From: Trypethelium eluteriae
Taxonomy: Eukaryota
Length of the DNA stretch: 64,000 bases
Assembly (NCBI GenBank): GCA_051942245.1
Contig: JAVECL010000015.1
Location: forward strand, 1 to 64,000
Reading direction: 5' to 3'
Program-made: the position numbers and the translations under genes
Part shown: positions 1 through 11,662 of the stretch, in pieces
Layout: every line of letters starts with the position of its first letter
Position numbering within the stretch: the stretch's first letter is position 1
Notes under the pieces: generated by a model
What the model was told of the DNA's origin: nothing
The model's input: only the letters and a program-made list of their open reading frames with translations
Database searches by the model: none

Positions 1-578
1 ACCCTGCCCCCTCTCCGCCATCCAAAGGGACGGCCCTCCTCATCACTTCCGGTGCCTCCAGTGTCGGAGCCAGCGCGATCCAGCTTGCCGTCGCCGCCGG
101 CTACGAGGTGCACACGACGACGTCGCCCAAAAACTTCGACCTCGTGCGCCGGCTAGGCGCGACCCATGTCGTCGACTATCACGACATGACGACCGCCGCG
201 GATGCCTTGGTCGCCGGACTGCACGGAAAGGATCTGGCAGGTGCGCTGGCCATCAATCCGGGCGGCGTCACGCTGACGGGCAAGGTGCTTGCGGCCGTCC
301 CTAACAGCGTCAAGTTCATTGCCGACGCGGGGCCTCCGCGGGGCGAAGAGTATCCAGATGGCATCACGTCCAAGTTCTTTATTCCGAACGATCTACATGA
401 GCCAGATTCGCTCACCTGCTGCCTCTGGCGCACTTTTCTGCCCCAGGCGCTGGCTGAGGGAAGCTTTGTGCCGGAGCCGGAGCCCTTGGTGGTGGGTCAG
501 GGACTGGACAAAATGCAAGAGGCCTACGACGTGTTCTACAAGGGCGTGTCCGCGCAGAAGGTCGTGGTCACCCTGTAG
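1..578 (+). CDS. Zinc-binding alcohol dehydrogenase / enoyl-reductase-like oxidoreductase (CipB/AzaJ-like), 5'-truncated by window edge
   Basis: Frame is open from position 3: ...LLITSGASSVGASAIQLAVAAGYEV(H)TTTSPKNFDLVRRLGATHVVDY...GVSAQKVVVTL*. The GASSVG nucleotide-binding motif and the C-terminal SAQKVVV are typical of fungal MDR enoyl-reductase-like proteins. Confidence 0.85.
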   Translation, partial: PAPSPPSKGTALLITSGASSVGASAIQLAVAAGYEVHTTTSPKNFDLVRRLGATHVVDYHDMTTAADALVAGLHGKDLAGALAINPGGVTLTGKVLAAVPNSVKFIADAGPPRGEEYPDGITSKFFIPNDLHEPDSLTCCLWRTFLPQALAEGSFVPEPEPLVVGQGLDKMQEAYDVFYKGVSAQKVVVTL

Positions 579-854
579 GACGCAAGGTGGGGATAGATGA
601 ACCTCGAGCAAATGGTTAAGGACTCACGCGTTTTGCTTGACAACGTTTCTACGAGCGACGAGCCATTGTAGGGTGAAGTACTGACTAGTATTCTTCAATC
701 ATTACTGTCCCCACTCACAAATCTCAAGAAACATGCAATCACGTTGCTTGCACAATTAGTGGGGCTCTATAGAACAATTGGCTCGAGAAGTTACGGACAA
801 GGGAAACTCATAATCTATTCCTCATAATGAAGCCTACTGTTTTTGGGTCGCTGT

Positions 855-3024
855 CTATTTGCCATCATTCGTAGTTTCGGGGTCCACTGACGGCTTCTTC
901 TTTCGAATATCATGCCAGCCCATGCCCCAAAGACAGATTATACGGGCAGCACTGAGACCAGTGACCAGGTAGAAGACACGATCGATGCTGGTGGCGTACG
1001 CGGATAAGAGTGGAGGAAGATCAGATGGTTGGACTTGATCACGAAAACCAGTGGCACCGCTATCAATGATGGCGGTCGCGTTGAGGTGCGGTGCCTTCTG
1101 CGTCAGCTGGGATCGGAGGCTCGTGTCGAAGATGACGTTGTAGAGCGCAAGGGCAATGGCAGGGCCCAAAAACTGTACACAGACGAGGAACGCCATGGCG
1201 GAAGGGAGCTCTGGTCCCTTGATTACCGCTTGAACGGCGACGATGGCCTATTGTGCGAAATCATGAGCGAAGAATTGCATGCTTTCTTTGGGATATAACG
1301 AACCACTTGGAGCCCCGCACCGGATCCAATGCCCCCTATGATCTGGAACCCGATCCATTCTCCAACGGGACTATTCGGACCGAGCAATGAGTACAGACCA
1401 CTCGCCACGGAGAGGAAAACAGTAGAAAATATGGCTGAGGGAAGAGCATATCCAATCGTTGACACTGAAAAACAAATTAGCCACACGACAGTTTCCCGTC
1501 GCATGATCATATCGTACTTATTTTTCCTGACGATACAGCCATAACAAGTTGAGAGAGGATGGTGGGTAAGAGGTATACACCACTGAGCATCGGACTCGCA
1601 TTGTCAACAGCCTGGAAATAGATCGGGAGAAAATAGATGATGCCGTAAATAGCTGTCTGTATAAGGGCCTGGTAGATTCCTGATGTCCAGACAGCCGTTT
1701 GACCGATGAGAGAGAATGGTAATGAAGCATCTTTTCCCCGGGAATAGTTCCAGAATATCCACACAACAGAGGTAGCCGCGGATCCACAGAAGAGACCGAT
1801 CACCTGGGACGAGTTCCAAGCATATACATTGCCACCGTATTGAAGAGCGAGCAGAAGCTGTAAGACCGCTGGCGCGAAAAGAACAAACCCCACGAGGTCG
1901 AGATAATGATGGAGCCTCCGTAGAACAGAAAGGGGACTCGCTTTGGTTGTTTGTTCGGGAATGTGTAGCAGCGCAATGGCGACCGCGGCAACAGCACCCA
2001 CAGGTATATTGACATAAAAGCCTTAAATCATAATTAGCACAGAACAAGTAATAATGGTATAGACAAATTAACTGACACCATCGCCATGTGGTATAGGATG
2101 TGAACGCTCCTCCAATGAGTGGTCCGGCGACGAGTCCGAGCTGATTGACTGCAGGCGAAAAGTCAGTTTTCGAATGAATAGTACCAATACATCTGCCGTA
2201 GGCCGACTTACATCCTGTCAAATAACCGATCAAAGCTGACGACCTTTGTTAGCGAAGGCGTGGGTTGCCAAGCTCGGGATGGTTTTCCACCTACCCGGGC
2301 GCTTCTCAAGAGGTGCACAGCTGGAGATGATGGTAATTGCACCCGTAGTGATTCCTGCGGCTCCCATTCCGGCCACAGCACGCGCAACTATCAACATACG
2401 GGAGGAGACGGCAGCGCCACAGAGTACTGAACCAAGCTCGAAGATTCCCAAAAAGACTAGAAATGTCCACTATTGTCTTCAGCAATCACCCTGTTACCAG
2501 AGTCTTACGTGACGAACCTTAGTGCTAAACCGGGTATAGATCTTTCCCGTCAGAAGCTGAGGAGCCGCGCTTGATTCGCGTCAGGATACTGAAGGACATT
2601 TCTCTTCTTTTCGAAGCTAGAGCGACACGTACCTCCCAAATTGATATGCGCTTGCATACCAACCAACATCGGTGAGCGAGTGGAAGGTATCTGTAATGCG
2701 AGGAATTGCCTAACATGTTTTTCCACACTCAGCCAGAAATTCGACATGTGTCGATTCACAGGGGCAAGAGCAAGTTACCGTGCCGATGATCATCGTGTCC
2801 AAAAGCATGAGGAAGCAGGACAAAGAAACAGTAGCGACGATGATTGCGAGCTTGTAGCCGGTAACATACTGACTCTGGTCGTTTGGTTGCTGCTCATGAT
2901 GGACTTTGGGGGACGAATCTGAATCAGGCGGCAATTGGGATATCGCGAGCTCGTTCTTCGAAGGTTGTGGGGACGACAGTTTCTCGTCGGACGTGCTCGT
3001 CTCCGATCTCGCCGAGTCATCCAT
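855..3024 (-). CDS. MFS drug:H+ antiporter (DHA2 family) efflux pump, multi-exon
   Basis: Spliced exons give [100 protein letters not shown] and GMGWHDI. GT-AG introns with branch sites are visible. Confidence 0.92.
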
Positions 3025-3515
3025 GGCAAATTACTATGATTTCAGAACGAAGGGAAAGGCCTGGCCAGTACAGATGGCCAAGCTTCACATTCTGGTCGCT
3101 TTCTGACGACGGCAGCTTCAAGTGCAAGCACCGTGGACGGAGATGCAAGTGACCCCATCTCTTGAGATCGGCAAGATATGCAGGCATCAGCAATTCAAGC
3201 TGTTGGATCAGGGCATTCGACTAGTGAGCCTGCAGTATGCGGTAGGACTTCGATCAGCGCGTCAGTGGAGCCTGGTGCAGTATTACGTTGACGCAAGCAC
3301 TCAAGTTTATCAGTCGGTATTTTACTCGATTTAATACCGTAACGTTACGGCCTGCGGCCCGGCTGGACAGCTGTGTCTGCACCACCCCTTTAGTGCCTTA
3401 AACCCTGCAACCCCTCTCATCCCAGCTAACCTCAGTTTCGCAATGCTTTTACCTTTTTCTATGTAGTTCTTACTGTCTACCTAACTCTACGGTGTCAGGC
3501 TAAGGACCGTGCGAT

Positions 3516-3639
3516 AGATCACCGATGTCACGGAAAAACGCCAATCTCCATTGAACATCAAGTTAACGTGCCGTACCGCGCTATGCGGTGCTGCACCGTT
3601 TGGTGGTTCTAAAGACTGTTCCGCAGATCACCGATGTCA
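3516..3639. repeat. 15-bp direct repeat AGATCACCGATGTCA (3516-3530 and 3625-3639) in the MFS/acyltransferase divergent intergenic region
   Basis: Exact match read from the sequence. It is followed by short GCCG/AGCC-rich degenerate repeats at about 3685-3740. Confidence 0.8.
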
Positions 3640-4702
3640 TACTTACTAAGTACCTATAACGGGATGTCAATCTCTATCGGGCTAGCGCGCCGAGCCGTGC
3701 CGCAGTCTTAGCCACACCGCTAGCCGCACCGTTAGCCGCAGTGATTTCCTCTATCTGGAAAAGAAAAAAGCGTCTCAATTGGACATAGATCACATGCTCT
3801 ACCTCCTGCCCGATCTCCTCTCATGTCTCACTTTTTTCGTGTTTTCACTGCCTACCATGCCTGGAGAGATTTATTTTCTACGTTGGTATGGTAAACAGTC
3901 AAACAAGCCAGTATTGAATTCCAAAATGTATGAGATGAGAGGTGATTCTTGTTGTTTTGGAGGTCTGTCTCGCATTCGAACCCTCTTCCCCCCTCTGGAC
4001 GGCCTCTGCTTCAGGGATGTCTCCGTTGAAGTACGTTAATTGCATCGGTGGGGATTCGTTTTTGCTTAGGCGAGCTAATCACCGGCACTCTCATCTACCA
4101 AGAGACGGGTAATCCAAAAGGGATCATTCAACTTTCCGTGAGGCTTGAAACGTCTCTCGGACCCATAAGGTGCAAGGGCTGTCGTCAATCTCGCATCTGC
4201 AAGCTGTGGTGTAACCTTTTACCGCAACCTTCGCATGCTGTTGGAACACGCTAGCAGGAGCGTAGTTGAAACCAACAAGTCACTATGAAAAGGATATTTA
4301 GGTAGGGATTGAAGGTATCTAACTCGAATCCAGGAACCACCGAGCCGTTTGAATTGTCAAACAGGAAAGACATCATCTGGTAGACTATCGATATGGCGTA
4401 CATGAGTGTGGGTGATCAGATGGGGGCCGGGACTTTCCCCAACAGGCATCTGGCTGCAAGGTCCAGTTTTTCAGCTCGCTTATCAACATTAGATGCATCG
4501 ATGCCCATGGGAAAGGATCGCACATTGTTGACTTAGGTACATGGTGTCCACCTGCAGGGGGGGTACGCGTTGTTGCCATGTCCAGCGATTCATGGCCACG
4601 TGATATGCTGTAGAATGGCCTGCCAACTACCATCTACAAACGACGAATGGTGTATCAATTACTCCCGAAACTGATATTCATATCGATCTGGGAGGGACGA
4701 CT

Positions 4703-6106
4703 ATGGGCGAACCGTTATCAAGTAATGATGAGTTCAATATCTATCAAGAATCGATATCGCAGTTCCCCTTTCTTAACGGGTACACCCACTTCGTTCGCGT
4801 CTTCGAAGTCAGCCAAACGACTCCCCGCCAATCTCTCGTAGCCGCCCTTCAAGATGCCTTTGACCAAGTCAAAGCCAAGATCCCATGGCTAGATGGCCAC
4901 GTCCGGACCGTCGACGGAGTGATGAAGAGCGTCCCCTGGCCCCGAGGTGCACGTGCAAACTGCGTCCGCCGTAAGGACGCCGACGACCTGCTGCCCTCCT
5001 TCGCCGACATCATGACCGCCGGCGGGCCCATCTCCATGTTCCCAGGCGACGTCCTCACCCCGTGGCCTGCATTGCCTGCACCGCACGGCATCACCGACGA
5101 CCTCGTGCCCGTAGCGGTGCTGACAGCCGTGTTCATCCGCGGCGGGCTGATCCTTGTCGTCACAACCCACCACGTCCTCTTCGACGCCGCCGCCATCTTC
5201 ACGCTGTGGGACCTGCTAGCCACCGTGATGAACGGCAACCCGGACCCCATTCCCGCTGCCACAGTCGTCCAGGCAAACCGCGACCGCACCCGCGTCATCC
5301 CCCTGCTCCGCCCCAACGAGCCCTGCAAGGACTTCTCCCATCTCCTCCGTCCCGCCGACTTCGTGCCACGCGCGCCCCCTCCCACCCGCTGGTGCGTCTT
5401 CCGCATCCCGCTGGCCAAGATCGCCGAGCTCAAAGCCGACATCGGCGGGCCGGGGTCGGTCGGATGGGATCCCGCAGTCAGATACATCTCTCGCAACGAC
5501 GCGCTGAGCGCGTTCGCATGGCAGCGCATCTGCGCGGTCCGCATCGCCAACGGCCGGGCTGGGTCGCGGGTCTCGAAGTTCGGACGAGCTGTCGACATGC
5601 GCCCGGCGTTGGACATCCCCAAGACGTACATGGGCCAGATGATCGGCCATGCGGCGACGCGACTGCCACTGCAGGAAGTCGCGATCGCGCCGCTCGCGCG
5701 ACTCGCGTGTCTGCTTCGGCGCGATCTGGCGGAGGCGAGGACGGCGTGGGCGCTGCGGAGTTACGCGACGTTTGTGGCGCGCACGCCTAAGGAGCGGCTG
5801 TTGTACGGTGGGGTGTACGATGCTGAGGTGGATGTGGGAGCGTCGTCCATTTACCGCATGGAAGAGGGCTACCGGCCGATGCGGATGGGCGTGCTCGGGA
5901 CGTCGCGCATGTTCCGCAAGCCCGACGCGATATCGATTCCCAGCTGTATGTACTTCTTCCCCTCGGACAATGAGCGCGACATGCAGTTGATGTTGTGCAT
6001 GACGTCCGACGACTTGGCGGGGTTGGTGAGAGACCCGGAGTGGAGTAAGTATATTGAGTGTGTTGATATAGCGCGGGCGACGAGGGGTACACCTGCCAGC
6101 GAGTAA
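4703..6106 (+). CDS. CoA-dependent acyl/acetyltransferase (transferase family; TRI101/AzaD-like)
   Basis: Intronless 467-aa ORF with an HxxxD catalytic motif (HVLFD), FIRGGLIL, SRNDALSAFAWQRI, RAVDMR and YMGQM segments. Confidence 0.88.
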   Translation: MGEPLSSNDEFNIYQESISQFPFLNGYTHFVRVFEVSQTTPRQSLVAALQDAFDQVKAKIPWLDGHVRTVDGVMKSVPWPRGARANCVRRKDADDLLPSFADIMTAGGPISMFPGDVLTPWPALPAPHGITDDLVPVAVLTAVFIRGGLILVVTTHHVLFDAAAIFTLWDLLATVMNGNPDPIPAATVVQANRDRTRVIPLLRPNEPCKDFSHLLRPADFVPRAPPPTRWCVFRIPLAKIAELKADIGGPGSVGWDPAVRYISRNDALSAFAWQRICAVRIANGRAGSRVSKFGRAVDMRPALDIPKTYMGQMIGHAATRLPLQEVAIAPLARLACLLRRDLAEARTAWALRSYATFVARTPKERLLYGGVYDAEVDVGASSIYRMEEGYRPMRMGVLGTSRMFRKPDAISIPSCMYFFPSDNERDMQLMLCMTSDDLAGLVRDPEWSKYIECVDIARATRGTPASE

Positions 6107-6413
6107 TAAGAGAAGACTTTCTTCGAGATAGATCTACCATTAGTGATGTGAATATGTGAGGTCTTCGCAAGCGCGCGTGTACTTACTAAAGCCTTTAGCA
6201 GCGGGCGCGCCCGTTTTATCGCATTAGATAATTTCCCTGTCACGAGATTAACTCTTTCAAGACACTCTTGGCACGAGGAATGTGCAATAGTAACTCGGTC
6301 ATTATGATTACATTAAATAGAATCCAGTAGGTAATCTACTACGGCGACCTCTATTCAGTATAGGCTCTGAAACGACACGGGAAAAAGAATGGGTGAAATA
6401 GGCTAGAAAAGCT

Positions 6414-7739
6414 TTAGCTATTAGTCGAGCTAATGTTCACCGTGACGTTTTGGATCGAGCATGCCGCGAGCGGTATGTGTGACTCGTTGAAGATACCCCA
6501 GAGCCACTCAAACGCCCCGGGCTGGCCGTTGATGAGCTCATCAACGTGCCCTCCCACCGTGTTGCGTTGATAGGTGATGTCGGGGTTAGTGGCAGAATAT
6601 TGGTTTACCAACGCATCGGTCTCTCGAACAGGGCAGTACTCGTCACCAACAGCCTTATAGAAATACAGAGGCGTGGTGGGCACGCCATACACTCCCAGCA
6701 CCGTGTCGTACGCAAAAATCTTCTTCATGACAGACGAGTTGAAGAGGTCTTCCCGCCCGCCAATAAAGTAGCTGTAGACGTCAACATTGTCCCAGTACGC
6801 CGTCGCGTTTAAAAGCGTCCGATTATACGTCCCAAGAAACTTGGCCGCCGTCGCCGGCACCAGCCGGCTGCGTATGTACGCATCGGCGGCAGGATACTCC
6901 GCCATGAGGCCCAAGACGGAACTGACCAAGTCGCCCGCAATCGCGCTGCCGTTGAAACCGTCCAAGGTCGTCGAGAGATTCGTGACCAGCCCACCGCTGG
7001 CGGCGCCTGCCAGGGTCAACTCCGGCGCATACTGCACCTGCAGCTCTGCTGCGGCGGCCGTCGCAACTGATCCGCCGCTGTATCCCCACAGCGCGACGGT
7101 GACCTTGTCGGGCTCGACTGCCAAGACCGTCTTCGCCAGGCTTAGTACGGCTCGCTGCGCATCCAGCGTCGCATGGCCTTCTTGCACCACCGCGCCGAAG
7201 GCCGCCTGCGGACCCTCGAAGTCCGGCGTCTGGACGAACCAGCCGTTGCCGAGCGCGAGATTGATAGTCGCGGTCTGAGAGGGGACGCCAAGGCTCGGAA
7301 CGGTTACGGCGAGGTCATTGTAGATGCCATATGAGGGGCTGGAGTCGACATCGGCCGAATCGTACGCGAATTGGAATGAGAGTAGCGCTAGGCGACCTGA
7401 GGGTGACAGGTATTCAGTTTTAGGAATGAACAGGGTCGTGACGGCCCAGGACGGCTGAAAATGCGAGTCCGTGGTGCGATAGAGGATGTTGTAGGCAGCC
7501 GAGGCGTTTGCGATCTGAGCCTCCGACGTCAGATTTCCGGGGGCCTGTCGGATGCGCAGAATGGTGCCTGGTGCTGAACCGTTCCAGCCCGAGGGTGCTG
7601 TATACCATGCATCCTGGCTCGGAGGGATGGGTTGTGATAGTGATGGTGATGTTGGTAGAAGTACAGCTGCCGCCGCTGCAGCAGCAACAAGGTGGAGACT
7701 GAGCAAGGATCTCGAAAGATGCATGATGTAATACGACAT
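6414..7739 (-). CDS. Secretory lipase/esterase (LIP family, TRI8-like)
   Basis: Signal-peptide-like N-terminus, PPSQDAWY, ILYRTTD, QFAYDS, PDFEGP, the nucleophile elbow WGYSGG, YAPEL, and GDE..P and GGH (Asp/His triad candidates). Intronless. The start may be the second Met (MHLSRS). Confidence 0.9.
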   Translation of the reverse strand: MSYYIMHLSRSLLSLHLVAAAAAAAVLLPTSPSLSQPIPPSQDAWYTAPSGWNGSAPGTILRIRQAPGNLTSEAQIANASAAYNILYRTTDSHFQPSWAVTTLFIPKTEYLSPSGRLALLSFQFAYDSADVDSSPSYGIYNDLAVTVPSLGVPSQTATINLALGNGWFVQTPDFEGPQAAFGAVVQEGHATLDAQRAVLSLAKTVLAVEPDKVTVALWGYSGGSVATAAAAELQVQYAPELTLAGAASGGLVTNLSTTLDGFNGSAIAGDLVSSVLGLMAEYPAADAYIRSRLVPATAAKFLGTYNRTLLNATAYWDNVDVYSYFIGGREDLFNSSVMKKIFAYDTVLGVYGVPTTPLYFYKAVGDEYCPVRETDALVNQYSATNPDITYQRNTVGGHVDELINGQPGAFEWLWGIFNESHIPLAACSIQNVTVNISSTNS

Positions 7740-8137
7740 GCAGTTGCTTTCCGCGCTGCTGTTCCACGACGGTGCGAAGGTAACGAACCAACGGTACCTC
7801 TGTCTCAGTCGTCTCCTCTTGAGAAATTCGAAGAGAAGACAGGAGATGGCTTGCTGGCCAGCTGACTACCCTTGGCCTTAAGTCCATCCGCGCTCAGCTC
7901 CAGTAGCCCTGCACGTCGTGCACATCGGCGTCCTCCACACGTACGTCATGGAAATCCTAGAAGAAGAGGGTAGCTGCCACATCATTTCCTTTAAGCGAAG
8001 AGGAATATGAAAAAGTAATATACATACAGCATGAGCTATAGTGTAAACACCTCTAAAGGACAGCCCACCCCTCTCATCCAGCTCAATGGCATCACACAAT
8101 ACTAGCAATACTATCGCAGCGAGCAGCCTGGTGAAAG

Positions 8138-9562
8138 ATGACTACATGCAGCGGCAAGGAGGATGAGGAATTAGGCGACACCCCGCCCCTCACTATCGCC
8201 ATCATCGGCGGTGGCATCGTGGGTGTGGTGCTTGCTCATGGCCTCCTGAAGCGTGGCGTCCGCGTTGCCGTTTATGAGCGCGCGCTCAACTTCCACGAGA
8301 TCGGCGCGGGTTTTGCTTTCACTGGCGTCGCGAGGGATTGTATGGCGCGGTTGAGCGGAGCCGTCATCGAGGCCATGCATCGTGTCGGTGTGCCAAACAA
8401 AAGACCCTTTGACAACTATTGGGATGGCTACCATCTTACGGCGAGCCACGCACAGCAGCAGCATGCTGGAAATGAGGTACAAGCAGACGTCGATCCTGAT
8501 GGTACCTCGTGTGAGCTGCTCTTCACCCGTCCCAATCACCAGCTCGCCTTCTGGGGGTGCCTGCGGGCCAGCTTCCTCGAGCAGCTCGCCTCCCTCCTTC
8601 CGCCCGGCGTCGCGCACTTTGACAAAGAACTTGTCGACCACTCCGACCCGCCCGAGGGTCCCGTCACACTGACCTTTAAAGACGGTACGACTGCCACAGC
8701 CGACGCCCTGATTGGCTGCGATGGCCTGCGCAGCCGAGTACGAGCTCAGCTACTAACGCCGCATGTACCCCACGCCGTCAATCCCCGGTACACGCACAAG
8801 CGGTGCTACCGGGCCGTGGTACCACTGAGCGAGGGCGAGCGCGTGCTAGGCGCGTACAAAGCGAACAACCAGTGTATGCACGTTGGGCCAGGCGCCCACG
8901 TGTTGACCTACCCCGTGGGTGAAGCCATGTTGAATATCGTTCTTTTCATCACCGACCAGAGCGACTGGCCCGATCCCGTCCGCATGACGGCGCCGGGATC
9001 CCGGGCCGACGCTCTCGCCGCCCTCAGCGACTGGGGCCCCGCTGTCCGCGGCCTCGCTGCCCTCCTCCCAACGGAGCCGCTCGTCTGGGGCATCTTCGAC
9101 ATGTTCGACCACCCGACCCCCTGGTATGCGCGGCAACGCGTGTGTCTGCTGGGTGATGCAGCGCACGCAGCTGCGCCCCACCATGGAGCCGGTGCGGGAT
9201 TCGGGGTCGAGGATGCGCTTGCGCTCGCCACGGCGGTGGAGGAGGCGTTGCGGACCATCAACGCGACGGGTCGGGGGGCGGAGCGGGACATGGTTGTTTC
9301 CAAGGCGGAGGCCCTCACGGCGGCGTTCCAGGCCTTTAACGACGTCCGCTACGAGCGCACGCAGTGGTTGGTGCGCAGCTCCCGCGAGGCAGGGGAGATC
9401 TATGAGTGGAGATACCCGCCGAGCGGGAGCGATCCGGCCAAGCTGAAGACGGAGCTGGATGAGCGCTTCAAAATCATCTGGGACTTTGATGTCGACAAGA
9501 TGGTAGATGAGACCAGGAGCGCGTATCACCGGCGAGTCGGCGATAATCAATTGGTTAATTGA
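8138..9562 (+). CDS. FAD-dependent monooxygenase, salicylate hydroxylase / TropB-AzaH-SorbC class
   Basis: IAIIGGGIVG (FAD binding), EIGAG, ADALIGCDGLRSRVR, and LLGDAAHAAAPHHGAGAGFGVEDA. Intronless. Confidence 0.92.
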   Translation: MTTCSGKEDEELGDTPPLTIAIIGGGIVGVVLAHGLLKRGVRVAVYERALNFHEIGAGFAFTGVARDCMARLSGAVIEAMHRVGVPNKRPFDNYWDGYHLTASHAQQQHAGNEVQADVDPDGTSCELLFTRPNHQLAFWGCLRASFLEQLASLLPPGVAHFDKELVDHSDPPEGPVTLTFKDGTTATADALIGCDGLRSRVRAQLLTPHVPHAVNPRYTHKRCYRAVVPLSEGERVLGAYKANNQCMHVGPGAHVLTYPVGEAMLNIVLFITDQSDWPDPVRMTAPGSRADALAALSDWGPAVRGLAALLPTEPLVWGIFDMFDHPTPWYARQRVCLLGDAAHAAAPHHGAGAGFGVEDALALATAVEEALRTINATGRGAERDMVVSKAEALTAAFQAFNDVRYERTQWLVRSSREAGEIYEWRYPPSGSDPAKLKTELDERFKIIWDFDVDKMVDETRSAYHRRVGDNQLVN

Positions 9563-10647
9563 AGACCGCTCATATGGAACTTCGTATCACTATTGTGGGT
9601 ATGTATTTCATGTACGTGATTTGCAAGTATCCAAGTATCTTTGCATTGTTTATAGCTCTATCTTGAGTCTTTCTTCGTCGTTGCCTTTAATCTTATGTCA
9701 CTCGAGGCTATCCCCTTGGCTAACATTAAGGTGATGCTATGTACGAGCGTTTCTTGTATAAGGTTTAGCAGAAAAACTATTGCAATACCTCACGGCAGAA
9801 TGTGTAAATATTTAACACATCTAACGAATTTGATGGGTTAGGAAATTCGGGAATAAGCCACATAAAATCTTGAAATGGTATTTTAGAAGTGGTATATCCA
9901 TCAGTGCAGGTCGCGTTGTATTGAGGTATCGATCATTCGCAGCTTAAGAGGCACTCTTCAAAAATAGGCAGTGTCCGCCCGGCGACATAAGTCCATCAAT
10001 GATCCGAAAGCTGTTGCTCGTTACTTCGCACTCGGATGAGTGCTTGCGTGATACCAGAGTCGGTAATATACGACCTGCAACATTATCAGCTTAGGCCTAC
10101 CGACTGGCATGCTCATCCAGTGGATCAGTCGTAGGCATTCAGCTTGAGGCCAACGACCGAAGCTAGCCTTGGTCTCGGTCTAGGCAAGGTACGATACGCT
10201 AGCGCCCCACCGTACCTAGTTTGGCATGGTGCGGATCAGTGCCTTTTCCTTCCTCCACACGTTCCACCGCCTTATTCCAAACAATTCCTCATGCTTGCGA
10301 AAGCTCAAGCTCTGGAACCTAGCTTGGCACCGCAATTGACTCGAGAGCAATTCCGACTGACTATCAAAGCGCAAAGGAGTTCATCGTTGACAAACTCAGA
10401 CGGCCCCCAAAAGGATTCTCATCTCTCATCCAGTGATGGAGCTACAAAATCCGGTGAAGCCATGATTGAGAAGGCGCACAATTGAGCCACCCTATGGTGC
10501 TACAGAATCCACCAGACTCTTCCTGGGCTGGTCAGAGACACTATCGTGTAGCTGAACGAAAGGTTGGTAGACCGGAGAGCTCGTAGACATTGGTGAACCT
10601 CCTCTACGTTCTATTTTCCTATCACTTGACGCTGTGGGTTTTCAAGC

Positions 10648-11662
10648 ATGTCTTTCCTTCTACAGCACCAAGGTTCTGTATGCATTCTCTCTGTGATTCT
10701 CCTGATCTTTCCCGCTGCGCATGCGCAGACGTGCTACTGGCCAAACGGCCAGGAAGCATCGGACCAAACGCCTTGCAATAAATCCGCTCCCTACAGTTCA
10801 TGCTGCTATTCCGACAGCTACTGTCTTGATAACGGTCTCTGTCTTGATGGTTATTGGAACCTTCTCTCCGCTGGAAGCTGCACCGACAAATCATACGACA
10901 GCCTGACATGCTTCCAATTTTGCAAGAACCGTAGGTCCACTCCTATATGAGGCCCCCCGCGATCAATGGCCCCTGAGGGCTCCTTCAACTAGTACTCCTT
11001 CCGCACTACTCTATTCCCACTCCATTGCATCTATCGTTGGGCGTCTGATTTCTAGCTCACTCTCACAAGCATCCTGGTCCTGGACCGACCTCATCGCCAA
11101 CTACAACACCACAGGTTTCTGCTGCCACTACTATGAAGATGTCTCCGACTCGGACGATAACCTCTGCGAGTCCAATCTTCCCCACGACAACTCCACCCGT
11201 CCAGTCTTCAACCCAGCCACTGGCCATATCGTCACCGACCGCACTACAGGCAGCATCGTCATGTACAACTCGACAACCCCAGAGAACGCCAGTAACAGTG
11301 CAGGGGTAGCGGGCGCCACGCTGCCGACAGTTACAGCTGGATCTAGCTCGGATTCCAACGGTACAAAGAGAGATGTGGCGATCGGCGTCGGAGTTGGTGT
11401 GCCCTTGATGCTGGCGCTAATGGCATTATCGCTGGTGGCATGGCTAGAAAGGCGAAAGTTGGTGCAGGAAAGAGCACGTTGGCCGTCTAAGCAGGCTTGG
11501 GGTGGGCAAGCACCATATGCGGCGATTCCGGAGCGGAAGGGCGCAGAGGGCGAGCAGAGGGTCCAAGCCCAAGAGTTGGATGTTGATACTGCGAGGCATG
11601 AATTAAGTCCAGTGTCGTTGGGAGAAGGTACGGACACGGGAACGGGAAGTAATGGTAGGTGA
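10648..11662 (+). CDS. Single-pass cell-surface protein with Cys-rich extracellular domain (Mid2-like architecture), 2 exons
   Basis: Signal peptide, then TCYWPNG..PC..CC..C..NGLC..GSCTD..C..C. Intron 10931-11069 restores the frame into a S/T region, a TM helix (IGVGVGVPLMLALMALSLVAW), a basic stop-transfer and an ELD/HEL tail. Confidence 0.75.

What the first reader, a model, noticed from the sequence alone, without database searches (positions are those of the whole stretch)
1..9562. Edge of an uncharacterised azaphilone-type (dearomatise-and-acylate) biosynthetic gene cluster
Seen: five contiguous tailoring or export genes (MDR oxidoreductase, DHA2 pump, HxxxD acyltransferase, LIP esterase, class A FAD monooxygenase), then an AT-richer gap and unrelated genes. 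Established: the Aspergillus niger aza cluster combines a dearomatising FMO (AzaH), acyltransferase (AzaD), zinc-binding dehydrogenase (AzaJ) and efflux pump (AzaK). Inference: a non-reducing PKS lies left of the window and the product is an acylated azaphilone or a related dearomatised polyketide.
Basis: partly seen in the sequence, partly recalled or inferred. Interest (0 to 1): 0.75.

Follow-up and report, generated by a model that had tools for sequence, protein, structure and literature searches.

The report
Azaphilone-type gene cluster in lichen fungus
These five genes are the right-hand half of an intact nine-gene cluster with which a lichen fungus probably makes a small azaphilone-type compound; it was already listed as an orphan cluster, its product is unknown, and it resembles a black-mould cluster that has been ascribed to satratoxin synthesis without a direct test that I could find.

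Summary
Confirmed. All five genes are real. The window starts at a contig end; the split oxidoreductase gene joins it in frame to contig C170, which carries the predicted non-reducing PKS (SAT-KS-AT-PT-ACP-CMeT-R, 2,636 aa) plus SnoaL-like, rhodopsin-domain and HSL-hydrolase genes: nine open genes over 26 kb. Three proteins are identical to Viridothelium virens records. No reducing PKS, FAS, FSH1 hydrolase, ketoreductase, P450 or Zn2Cys6 gene was found in it. The monooxygenase keeps the TropB-type Arg/Tyr pair and groups (UFBoot 100) with Stachybotrys Sat7, not with AfoD. The gene-family set resembles 'satratoxin cluster' SC1; a metagenome contig shares 7 of 9 genes, and six other fungi keep two or three orthologues side by side. 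Best reading: reductive release of a methylated benzaldehyde, dearomatising hydroxylation, reduction, O-acylation, export, and ester removal or transfer by a secreted lipase. The product is not shown. Novelty is modest: a 2021 review's supplement lists a V. virens locus of matching span, and SC1, among 193 putative azaphilone clusters. Only Sat7 could be compared by sequence. The scan's notes held nothing similar on other DNA.

The parts
1..578 (+). C-terminal 191 residues of a LovC/AzaJ-like medium-chain (enoyl-type) reductase; the N-terminal 160 codons lie on G000:C170:481-2 (-), across the assembly break
   Evidence: homologue residues 1-157 on C170, 158-345 in the window; loose end overlaps the C170 end by 23 letters, in frame
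855..3024 (-). MFS (DHA2-type) efflux pump, 569 aa, eight introns (2759-2710, 2632-2557, 2517-2470, 2294-2236, 2211-2149, 2076-2022, 1517-1465, 1303-1248)
   Evidence: model by splice-signal scoring, no RNA support
4703..6106 (+). Tri101/AzaD-type CoA-dependent O-acyltransferase, 467 aa, intronless, HxxxD present
6414..7724 (-). LIP-family (lipase A / Tri8 / Sat6-type) esterase, 436 aa, intronless, hydrophobic N-terminus, 11 N-glycosylation sequons, Ser-Asp-His motifs present
8138..9562 (+). Class A flavin monooxygenase, 474 aa, intronless; Arg225, Tyr258, Val268 match TropB positions 206, 239, 250; Sat7 clade
1..1 (+). LEFT OF THE WINDOW, G000:C170:2314-1213 (-): HSL-family alpha/beta hydrolase, 342 aa, one intron, HGGG and GESAGG motifs
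1..1 (-). LEFT OF THE WINDOW, G000:C170:3054-4445 (+): fungal rhodopsin-domain membrane protein (PF20684, the family of Sat4), 379 aa, three introns
   Evidence: family of Sat4 from a table row in PMC13116585
1..1 (-). LEFT OF THE WINDOW, G000:C170:5101-5565 (+): SnoaL-like protein, 154 aa
   Evidence: PF13577 E 1e-25; no solved relative under E 0.4
1..1 (-). LEFT OF THE WINDOW, G000:C170:8493-16454 (+): group VII-type non-reducing PKS SAT-KS-AT-PT-ACP-CMeT-R, 2,636 aa, one intron (10481-10531), catalytic motifs of all seven domains present
   Evidence: CazM SAT 218 bits; citrinin PKS CMeT 354 bits

Best explanation
A self-contained, intact azaphilone-type cluster of the SC1-like subfamily. 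Step 1 (domains shown, product inferred): the PKS, probably acetyl-primed because no reducing PKS or FAS is in the cluster, builds a short C-methylated chain, closes the ring C2-C7 and releases a dihydroxy-methyl-benzaldehyde through its R domain. Step 2 (inferred from family and residues): the monooxygenase hydroxylates the methyl-bearing carbon, probably on the TropB/(R) face, and the dearomatised product closes to the pyranoquinone. Step 3 (inferred): the MDR enzyme reduces an enone or ketone; the SnoaL protein and the HSL hydrolase may steer cyclisation or clear stalled PKS. Step 4 (inferred): the acyltransferase esterifies a hydroxyl, most simply with acetyl-CoA; the MFS pump exports the ester; the secreted LIP enzyme removes or transfers the acyl group outside the cytosol. 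The end product would be a small, austdiol/xylariphilone-type azaphilone or its ester.
For: PKS architecture and motifs match the definition of azaphilone PKSs in PMC8596599 and PMC8403587. All nine frames are open. FMO ranks AfoD > TropB > SorC > salicylate hydroxylase and has Tyr at position 239 and non-Phe at 250, which PMC10104550 ties to (R) product. Seven of nine genes recur at 54-69% identity within 15 kb on metagenome locus L026. Acyltransferase and FMO trees show the same two sister groups. PMC8596599's supplement lists a V. virens locus of 26,023 bp with nrPKS, OAT and FMO and without hrPKS or serine hydrolase; my joined span is 26,022 bp. Annulohypoxylon species, whose genomes carry the sister clade, are reported to make xylariphilone and annulohypoxylomans in culture.
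Against: No product, expression or enzyme data. No ketoreductase, which PMC8403587 counts in the minimal set, although its group B clusters also lack one. The SAT domain keeps its Cys and resembles CazM's, which takes a reducing-PKS starter; L026 has a reducing PKS 3.4 kb from the cluster, and this genome has a PKS-less tailoring block with a reducing PKS on C240, so priming or acylation in trans is possible. Chain length cannot be read from sequence. PMC8403587 saw no obvious azaphilone cluster in A. truncatum, so clusters of this clade may make something else. The xylariphilone link is co-occurrence at genus or species level only; I did not see whether those loci hold a PKS or a LIP gene. 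The acyltransferase was not compared with AzaD, CazE or Sat5 (sequences not held). TropB, AzaH, SorC and salicylate hydroxylases were not in my trees.
Confidence: 0.55

Rival explanations
1. Classical acylated azaphilone made in partnership: a reducing PKS elsewhere (for example on C240) supplies the starter or the acyl chain, as the two hfaza clusters cooperate in Hypoxylon fragiforme; LIP acts as a second transacylase or editing enzyme.
For: CazM-like SAT with Cys; reducing PKS next to the relative cluster L026; C240 holds reducing PKS, FSH1 hydrolase, FAD oxidase, acyltransferase and FMO but no NR-PKS; split pathways are described in PMC8403587.
Against: The L026 reducing-PKS fragment has no clear orthologue here (best 47%, on C282 among housekeeping genes; C240 39%), below the 54-69% of the cluster orthologues. 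C240 has its own FMO and acyltransferase, and a lone NR-PKS paralogue on C122 (52% identical) is a natural partner for it. SC1 also has no reducing PKS.
Confidence: 0.22
2. Same first two steps, but the dearomatised intermediate is rearranged to a non-azaphilone skeleton (ring contraction, furan as in asperfuranone, tropolone, or dimer).
For: The FMO's nearest solved relative is AfoD; SnoaL-like and two hydrolase genes have no set role in known azaphilone pathways; A. truncatum was not scored as having an azaphilone cluster.
Against: No FAD-linked oxidase (AfoF type), non-haem iron dioxygenase or P450 gene among the nine; dearomatisation of such benzaldehydes closes to the azaphilone spontaneously even with AteAfoD (PMC8596599).
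Confidence: 0.12
3. A silent or decaying remnant that has lost its regulator and partner PKS.
For: No Zn2Cys6 match on C15 or C170 among 110 matches genome-wide (150 of 159 candidates scored); a 2.9-kb spacer before the PKS without an ORF over about 110 codons.
Against: All nine frames open, catalytic motifs present; spacers show no RIP-like bias and no reducing-PKS remnant; the run's contigs show no insertion or deletion over 12 kb.
Confidence: 0.09
4. A catabolic island (salicylate-type hydroxylase, esterases, pump) next to an unrelated PKS.
For: Many homologues carry automatic names such as 'salicylate hydroxylase'.
Against: Score order; salicylate 1-monooxygenase model 227 bits against a cut-off of 446; FMO sits directly beside the PKS in L026 and in SC1.
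Confidence: 0.02

Closest known systems
Stachybotrys chartarum 'satratoxin cluster' SC1, SAT1-SAT10 (PMC4117958: passages and supplementary file 6 read; PMC9027890, PMC6971138: passages)
   Same: Five gene families in common: membrane protein, acetyltransferase, secretory lipase, FMO, non-reducing PKS; acyltransferase-lipase-FMO are neighbours and intronless in both, with like sizes (463/485/470/2,602 aa against 467/436/474/2,636); no reducing PKS; FMO 50% identical to Sat7 and in one clade. L026 has the SC1 order membrane protein-AT-(MDR, hydrolase)-LIP-FMO-PKS.
   Different: SC1 has a second FMO-like gene, two SDRs, a Cys6 factor and an ankyrin protein; this locus has instead MDR, HSL hydrolase, SnoaL and MFS genes, and its PKS lies at the far end. 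Only Sat7 was compared by sequence; Sat5 is not named among 61 acyltransferase hits. SC1's product is unknown.
Azanigerone (aza) cluster of Aspergillus niger and the azaphilone consensus pathway (PMC8596599: parts 1-3 of 4 and whole supplement read)
   Same: Group VII-type NR-PKS with CMeT and R, dearomatising-type FMO, O-acyltransferase, MDR dehydrogenase, pump (the last two roles in aza are recalled). A V. virens locus of matching span is one of its 193 cblaster hits.
   Different: No reducing PKS (AzaB) or FSH1 serine hydrolase (AzaC); no ketoreductase, P450, FAD oxidases or transcription factor; adds LIP, HSL hydrolase, SnoaL and rhodopsin-domain genes.
Asperfuranone (afo) cluster, AfoD
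   Same: AfoD is the nearest solved FMO (384 bits; AteAfoD 44% identical).
   Different: AteAfoD has Phe at 239 and 250 and is in a sister clade; no AfoG, AfoC or AfoF counterpart in this cluster (such genes sit on C240).
Fusarium Tri101 / Tri8 acetylase-deacetylase pair
   Same: Acyltransferase's only solved relatives are Tri101 (140 bits); PMC4117958 reports Sat6 40% identical to Tri8 and proposed a self-protection role for Sat5/Sat6.
   Different: Different scaffold; no trichodiene synthase family match in this genome; the pairing here is an analogy, not tested.

Membership tests
Azaphilone biosynthetic cluster | NR-PKS with SAT-KS-AT-PT-ACP-(CMeT)-R | tested here: met
   (PT model 94 bits, below its cut-off of 168); no PKS phylogeny was made
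Azaphilone biosynthetic cluster | Co-located AzaH/AfoD/TropB-type FMO | tested here: met
Azaphilone biosynthetic cluster | Co-located AzaD-type O-acyltransferase | tested here: met
   family level only; the published cblaster row scores an AzaD hit; no direct comparison with AzaD here
Azaphilone biosynthetic cluster | Ketoreductase of the minimal set (MrPigC/AzaE type) | tested here: not met
   no SDR among the nine genes; also absent from group B clusters in PMC8403587
Azaphilone biosynthetic cluster | Acyl-chain source in the cluster (reducing PKS or FAS) and FSH1 hydrolase (both optional per PMC8596599) | tested here: not met
Azaphilone biosynthetic cluster | Product with a pyranoquinone core | not testable with these tools
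   needs expression and chemistry
SC1-like cluster subfamily | FMO orthologous to Sat7 | tested here: met
   50% identity; clade of 29 of 116 sequences, support 1.0; 14 of 26, UFBoot 100
SC1-like cluster subfamily | Same families as SAT4, SAT5, SAT6, SAT8 in the cluster | tested here: met
   family names and sizes
SC1-like cluster subfamily | Sequence orthology to Sat4, Sat5, Sat6, Sat8 | tested here: inconclusive
   sequences not held; Sat5 not named among 61 hits from 8,000 scored candidates; Sat6 not named among the 10 LIP representatives looked up of 150 listed
SC1-like cluster subfamily | SDR pair, Cys6 factor, ankyrin protein (SAT2/3, SAT9, SAT10) | tested here: not met
Tropolone cluster (TropA-D type) | Non-haem iron dioxygenase and P450 beside PKS and FMO (definition recalled) | tested here: not met
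   no such family among the nine genes
Trichothecene pathway | Trichodiene synthase gene in the genome | tested here: inconclusive
   0 candidates for PF06330, no positive control rang; a related terpene synthase family gave 8 matches by the same search; the assembly is fragmented

The most novel reading that the evidence does not exclude
This locus, Stachybotrys SC1 and clusters of Eutypa, Annulohypoxylon, Hypoxylon and Lophiostoma are one old subfamily, marked by the Sat7-clade monooxygenase, a Tri101-like acyltransferase, a secreted Tri8-like lipase and a rhodopsin-domain protein. It makes small azaphilones (xylariphilone type) through an acetyl-on-inside, acetyl-off-outside step, and SC1 has no part in building satratoxins.
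Probability: 0.3. Interest if true: 0.68.

Novelty: new member of a known kind. Interest (0 to 1): 0.42.

Why it matters
As a cluster it is one more orphan azaphilone-type pathway, already present as a table row. Its use is as a clean test case: nine intact genes in a fungus with no trichodiene synthase match, sharing its gene families with SC1, ten genes that databases name as satratoxin enzymes. Strains with all of SC1 but without SC2 make no macrocyclic trichothecenes (PMC6971138), and the side-chain PKS is ascribed to TRI17 (PMC11438704). If the lichen cluster yields an azaphilone on its own, the SC1 annotation and the many automatic 'SAT' names derived from it need revision, and a secreted lipase would join the azaphilone tool kit.

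Tried and rejected
No RNA holder listed, so expression was not examined. First metagenome scan failed on a gappy alignment; the repeat gave 1 confirmed locus from 154 pattern matches; the rest of that contig could not be reached, so its reducing PKS is seen only in part. Exact look-up of the SnoaL protein, meant to place C170 genes on the public contig, found nothing. Shared promoter motifs across 12 upstream regions did not beat shuffles (best 8-mer in 5 regions, reached in 7 of 100 shuffles; best 7-mer in 6, reached in 68 of 100). A six-frame Zn2Cys6 pattern found nothing anywhere, so it had no control; one search replaced it. First splice models failed or over-called introns; one search is the one used. 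The first IQ-TREE run ended without support values; one search repeated it on 26 chosen sequences. Atlas searches only confirmed the LIP and transferase families. Rejected: MrPigM/MrPigO-type acetylation-elimination, since both are described as AT-domain proteins and only one acyltransferase is here; the AT-richer gap as a boundary sign. From memory I first had AfoD with Tyr and AzaH with Phe at position 239; one search shows AfoD has Phe, and I use the paper. Earlier scan notes: none near this place or like this FMO.
Full report
Observation. The MFS frame is open with eight canonical introns (569 aa). The acyltransferase and FMO are 100% identical to proteins that NCBI names Viridothelium virens, with accession numbers two apart on a 422,929-bp contig that also holds the LIP protein. 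The AT-richer gap after 9562 is mild (GC 0.466; 17 of 315 stretches lower) and no lower than several spacers inside the cluster. PDS5 follows at 13-17 kb.

The missing half. The window begins at base 1 of contig C15. A full-length MDR homologue matched residues 1-157 at the end of contig C170 and 158-345 at the window's start. In the one DNA run found, a contig's 30-letter loose end before position 2 repeats the last 23 letters of reversed C170, and the join keeps the frame (compared by eye). That run differs from the window at 14 listed places in 12 kb but may still be close to the assembly's source. C170 carries an HSL hydrolase, a rhodopsin-domain protein, a SnoaL-like protein and a 2,636-aa PKS with SAT, KS, AT, PT, ACP, CMeT and R domains and their catalytic motifs; its SAT resembles CazM's and its CMeT the citrinin PKS's. 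Beyond the PKS lies a Ser/Thr-rich membrane-type gene without Pfam match. PKS stop to FMO stop is 26,022 bases. Independent support came late: Figure S3 of PMC8596599 lists a V. virens locus ML991789.1:86748-112770 (26,023 bases) with nrPKS, OAT and FMO hits and no hrPKS or serine hydrolase hit. I take it to be this locus from the span; I did not see the record.

What is absent. No KS match other than the PKS on C170 and none on C15 among 72 matches; no Zn2Cys6 match on either contig among 110 (150 of 159 candidates scored); no SDR, P450, FAD oxidase or FSH1 family among the nine genes; no reducing-PKS remnant in the spacers.

The monooxygenase. Against solved structures it scores AfoD 384, TropB 309, SorC 278, salicylate hydroxylase 190 bits. 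In a tree of 116 sequences (the window's FMO plus 115 of the 119 other listed hits; 4 dropped for length) it lies in a 29-member clade, support 1.0, with Stachybotrys Sat7 and proteins of Eutypa, Annulohypoxylon, Jackrogersella, Hypoxylon, Lophiostoma and Periconia, apart from AteAfoD and Hfaza2D. On 26 chosen sequences the clade (14 members) has UFBoot 100; all 14 have Arg and Tyr at TropB positions 206 and 239 and none has Phe at 250. PMC10104550 (passages) ties Tyr239 to the (R) product in TropB- and AfoD-related enzymes. TropB, AzaH and SorC sequences were not held and are not in the trees.

Relatives. One metagenome scan gave 1 confirmed locus from 154 pattern matches. L026 holds 7 of the 9 genes at 54-69% identity in the order rhodopsin-AT-MDR-hydrolase-LIP-FMO-PKS, no MFS or SnoaL match in 21 kb, and the end of a reducing PKS next door. 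Accession numbers or locus tags put orthologues side by side in A. moriforme (FMO 553, MDR 557, AT 559), A. truncatum (131, 135, 137), H. crocopeplum (100, 096, 095), A. maeteangense (MDR 865, AT 867), L. macrostomum (FMO 343, MDR 341) and Annulohypoxylon sp. FPYF3050 (3472, 3476): 6 of 6 checked, but chosen because contig lengths agreed, and I did not see the genes between. The acyltransferase tree (60 rows: 59 of 61 hits, 2 partial ones dropped, plus L026) splits into the same two sister groups as the FMO tree; kin share such patterns, so this shows orthology, not function.

SC1. PMC4117958 (passages; supplementary file 6 whole) defines SC1 as SAT4 membrane protein, SAT5 acetyltransferase, SAT6 secretory lipase, SAT7, SAT8 non-reducing PKS, plus SAT1-3, 9, 10, assigns it to satratoxins by chemotype-specific presence, and already suggests a Tri101/Tri8-like protective role for SAT5/SAT6. 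PMC9027890 (passages) reports no clustered SC1 homologues in other fungi; the present locus and L026 argue otherwise at family level. PMC6971138 (passages) found all ten SC1 genes in non-producing genotype H strains, which lacked SC2; this shows SC1 is not sufficient, not that it is dispensable. PMC11438704 (passages) ascribes the C4 polyketide to TRI17. This genome gave no trichodiene synthase family match (no positive control; a related family rang 8 times). Against my reading: only Sat7 was compared by sequence; Sat5 is not named among the 61 acyltransferase hits, many of which are unnamed; five SC1 genes have no counterpart here.

Mechanism. Shown: domains, motifs, open frames, co-location. 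Inferred: benzaldehyde release, dearomatisation and ring closure follow the consensus in PMC8596599 (parts 1-3 of 4). Reduction by the MDR is by analogy with Monascus reductases (PMC5603960 passages). The LIP protein has a hydrophobic N-terminus and 11 sequons and its L026 orthologue also starts with a hydrophobic stretch, so it probably works outside the cytosol, after export; whether it hydrolyses or transfers the acyl group is open (that lipase A-type enzymes can transfer acyl groups is recalled). A lead to the product: PMC9050426 (passages) lists annulohypoxylomans from A. truncatum and classes xylariphilone, a diastereomer of felinone A, as austdiol-type; PMC10307966 (passages) isolated xylariphilone from A. 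atroroseum. That these are short and unacylated is recalled, and no paper seen links them to a cluster. PMC8403587 (sections 16-18 and passages) saw no obvious azaphilone cluster in A. truncatum, which counts against. A partner in trans is possible: C240 has a reducing PKS, FSH1 hydrolase, FAD oxidase, acyltransferase and FMO without an NR-PKS, but a lone NR-PKS paralogue on C122 may be its partner.

What is in print. The locus and both SC1 copies (coordinates equal to SAT5-SAT8) and a Eutypa lata locus are rows among 193 clusters, 185 of them orphan, in PMC8596599's supplement (read whole), without comment. Sat7 appears in the FMO alignment of PMC8403587's supplement, labelled satratoxin biosynthesis. 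I found no paper that discusses SC1 as an azaphilone cluster (searches; PMC13116585 and PMC12010586 checked by passages), this cluster of V. virens (searches; listings only), or a secretory lipase in an azaphilone cluster (search 66; none of 11 listed holds both terms). The library lacks most subscription journals, and the supplement of PMC10104550 could not be read; it may hold data on enzymes of this clade. The supplement of PMC9027890 held none of six terms.

Verdict. Real, correctly read, and completed here to nine genes. A new-to-description member of a known kind, already listed as an orphan. The interest lies in the SC1 link and the acyltransferase-secreted lipase pair, both testable and both unproven.

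Noticed in passing
G000:C240:4600-25100 (loci L035-L037): A second afo/aza-like tailoring block: FAD-linked oxidase, Tri101-like acyltransferase (37% to the window's), reducing PKS, FSH1 serine hydrolase, FMO (40-44%) and two SDR-looking frames (by motif only), with no non-reducing PKS on the contig.
   Followed up: partly
G000:C122:9600-17714 (loci L031-L032): A lone SAT-KS-AT-PT-ACP-CMeT-R-type PKS paralogue, 52% identical to the cluster PKS, beside 9.5 kb of ORF-free DNA at GC 0.228; possibly the displaced core of the C240 block.
   Followed up: partly
window 3500-3530 and 3609-3639: Direct repeat, 15 letters exact, in the divergent MFS/acyltransferase promoter; none of 300 shuffles reached 15. 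Its 11-letter core occurs nowhere else in the window or C170. Possibly a regulator site.
   Followed up: partly
window 3-575, 4703-6103, 6417-7724, 8147-9559: GC at third codon positions is high in MDR, acyltransferase, LIP and FMO (0.69-0.81) against 0.49-0.62 in MFS, PKS and PDS5: two compositional layers within one cluster.
   Followed up: no
window 10630-11662 and G000:C170:17395-19077: Both flanks of the cluster are Ser/Thr-rich genes with one apparent membrane segment and no Pfam match.
   Followed up: no
window 1-578 / C170 junction: The MDR has about seven extra residues in the linker where the assembly breaks, compared with homologues.
   Followed up: no
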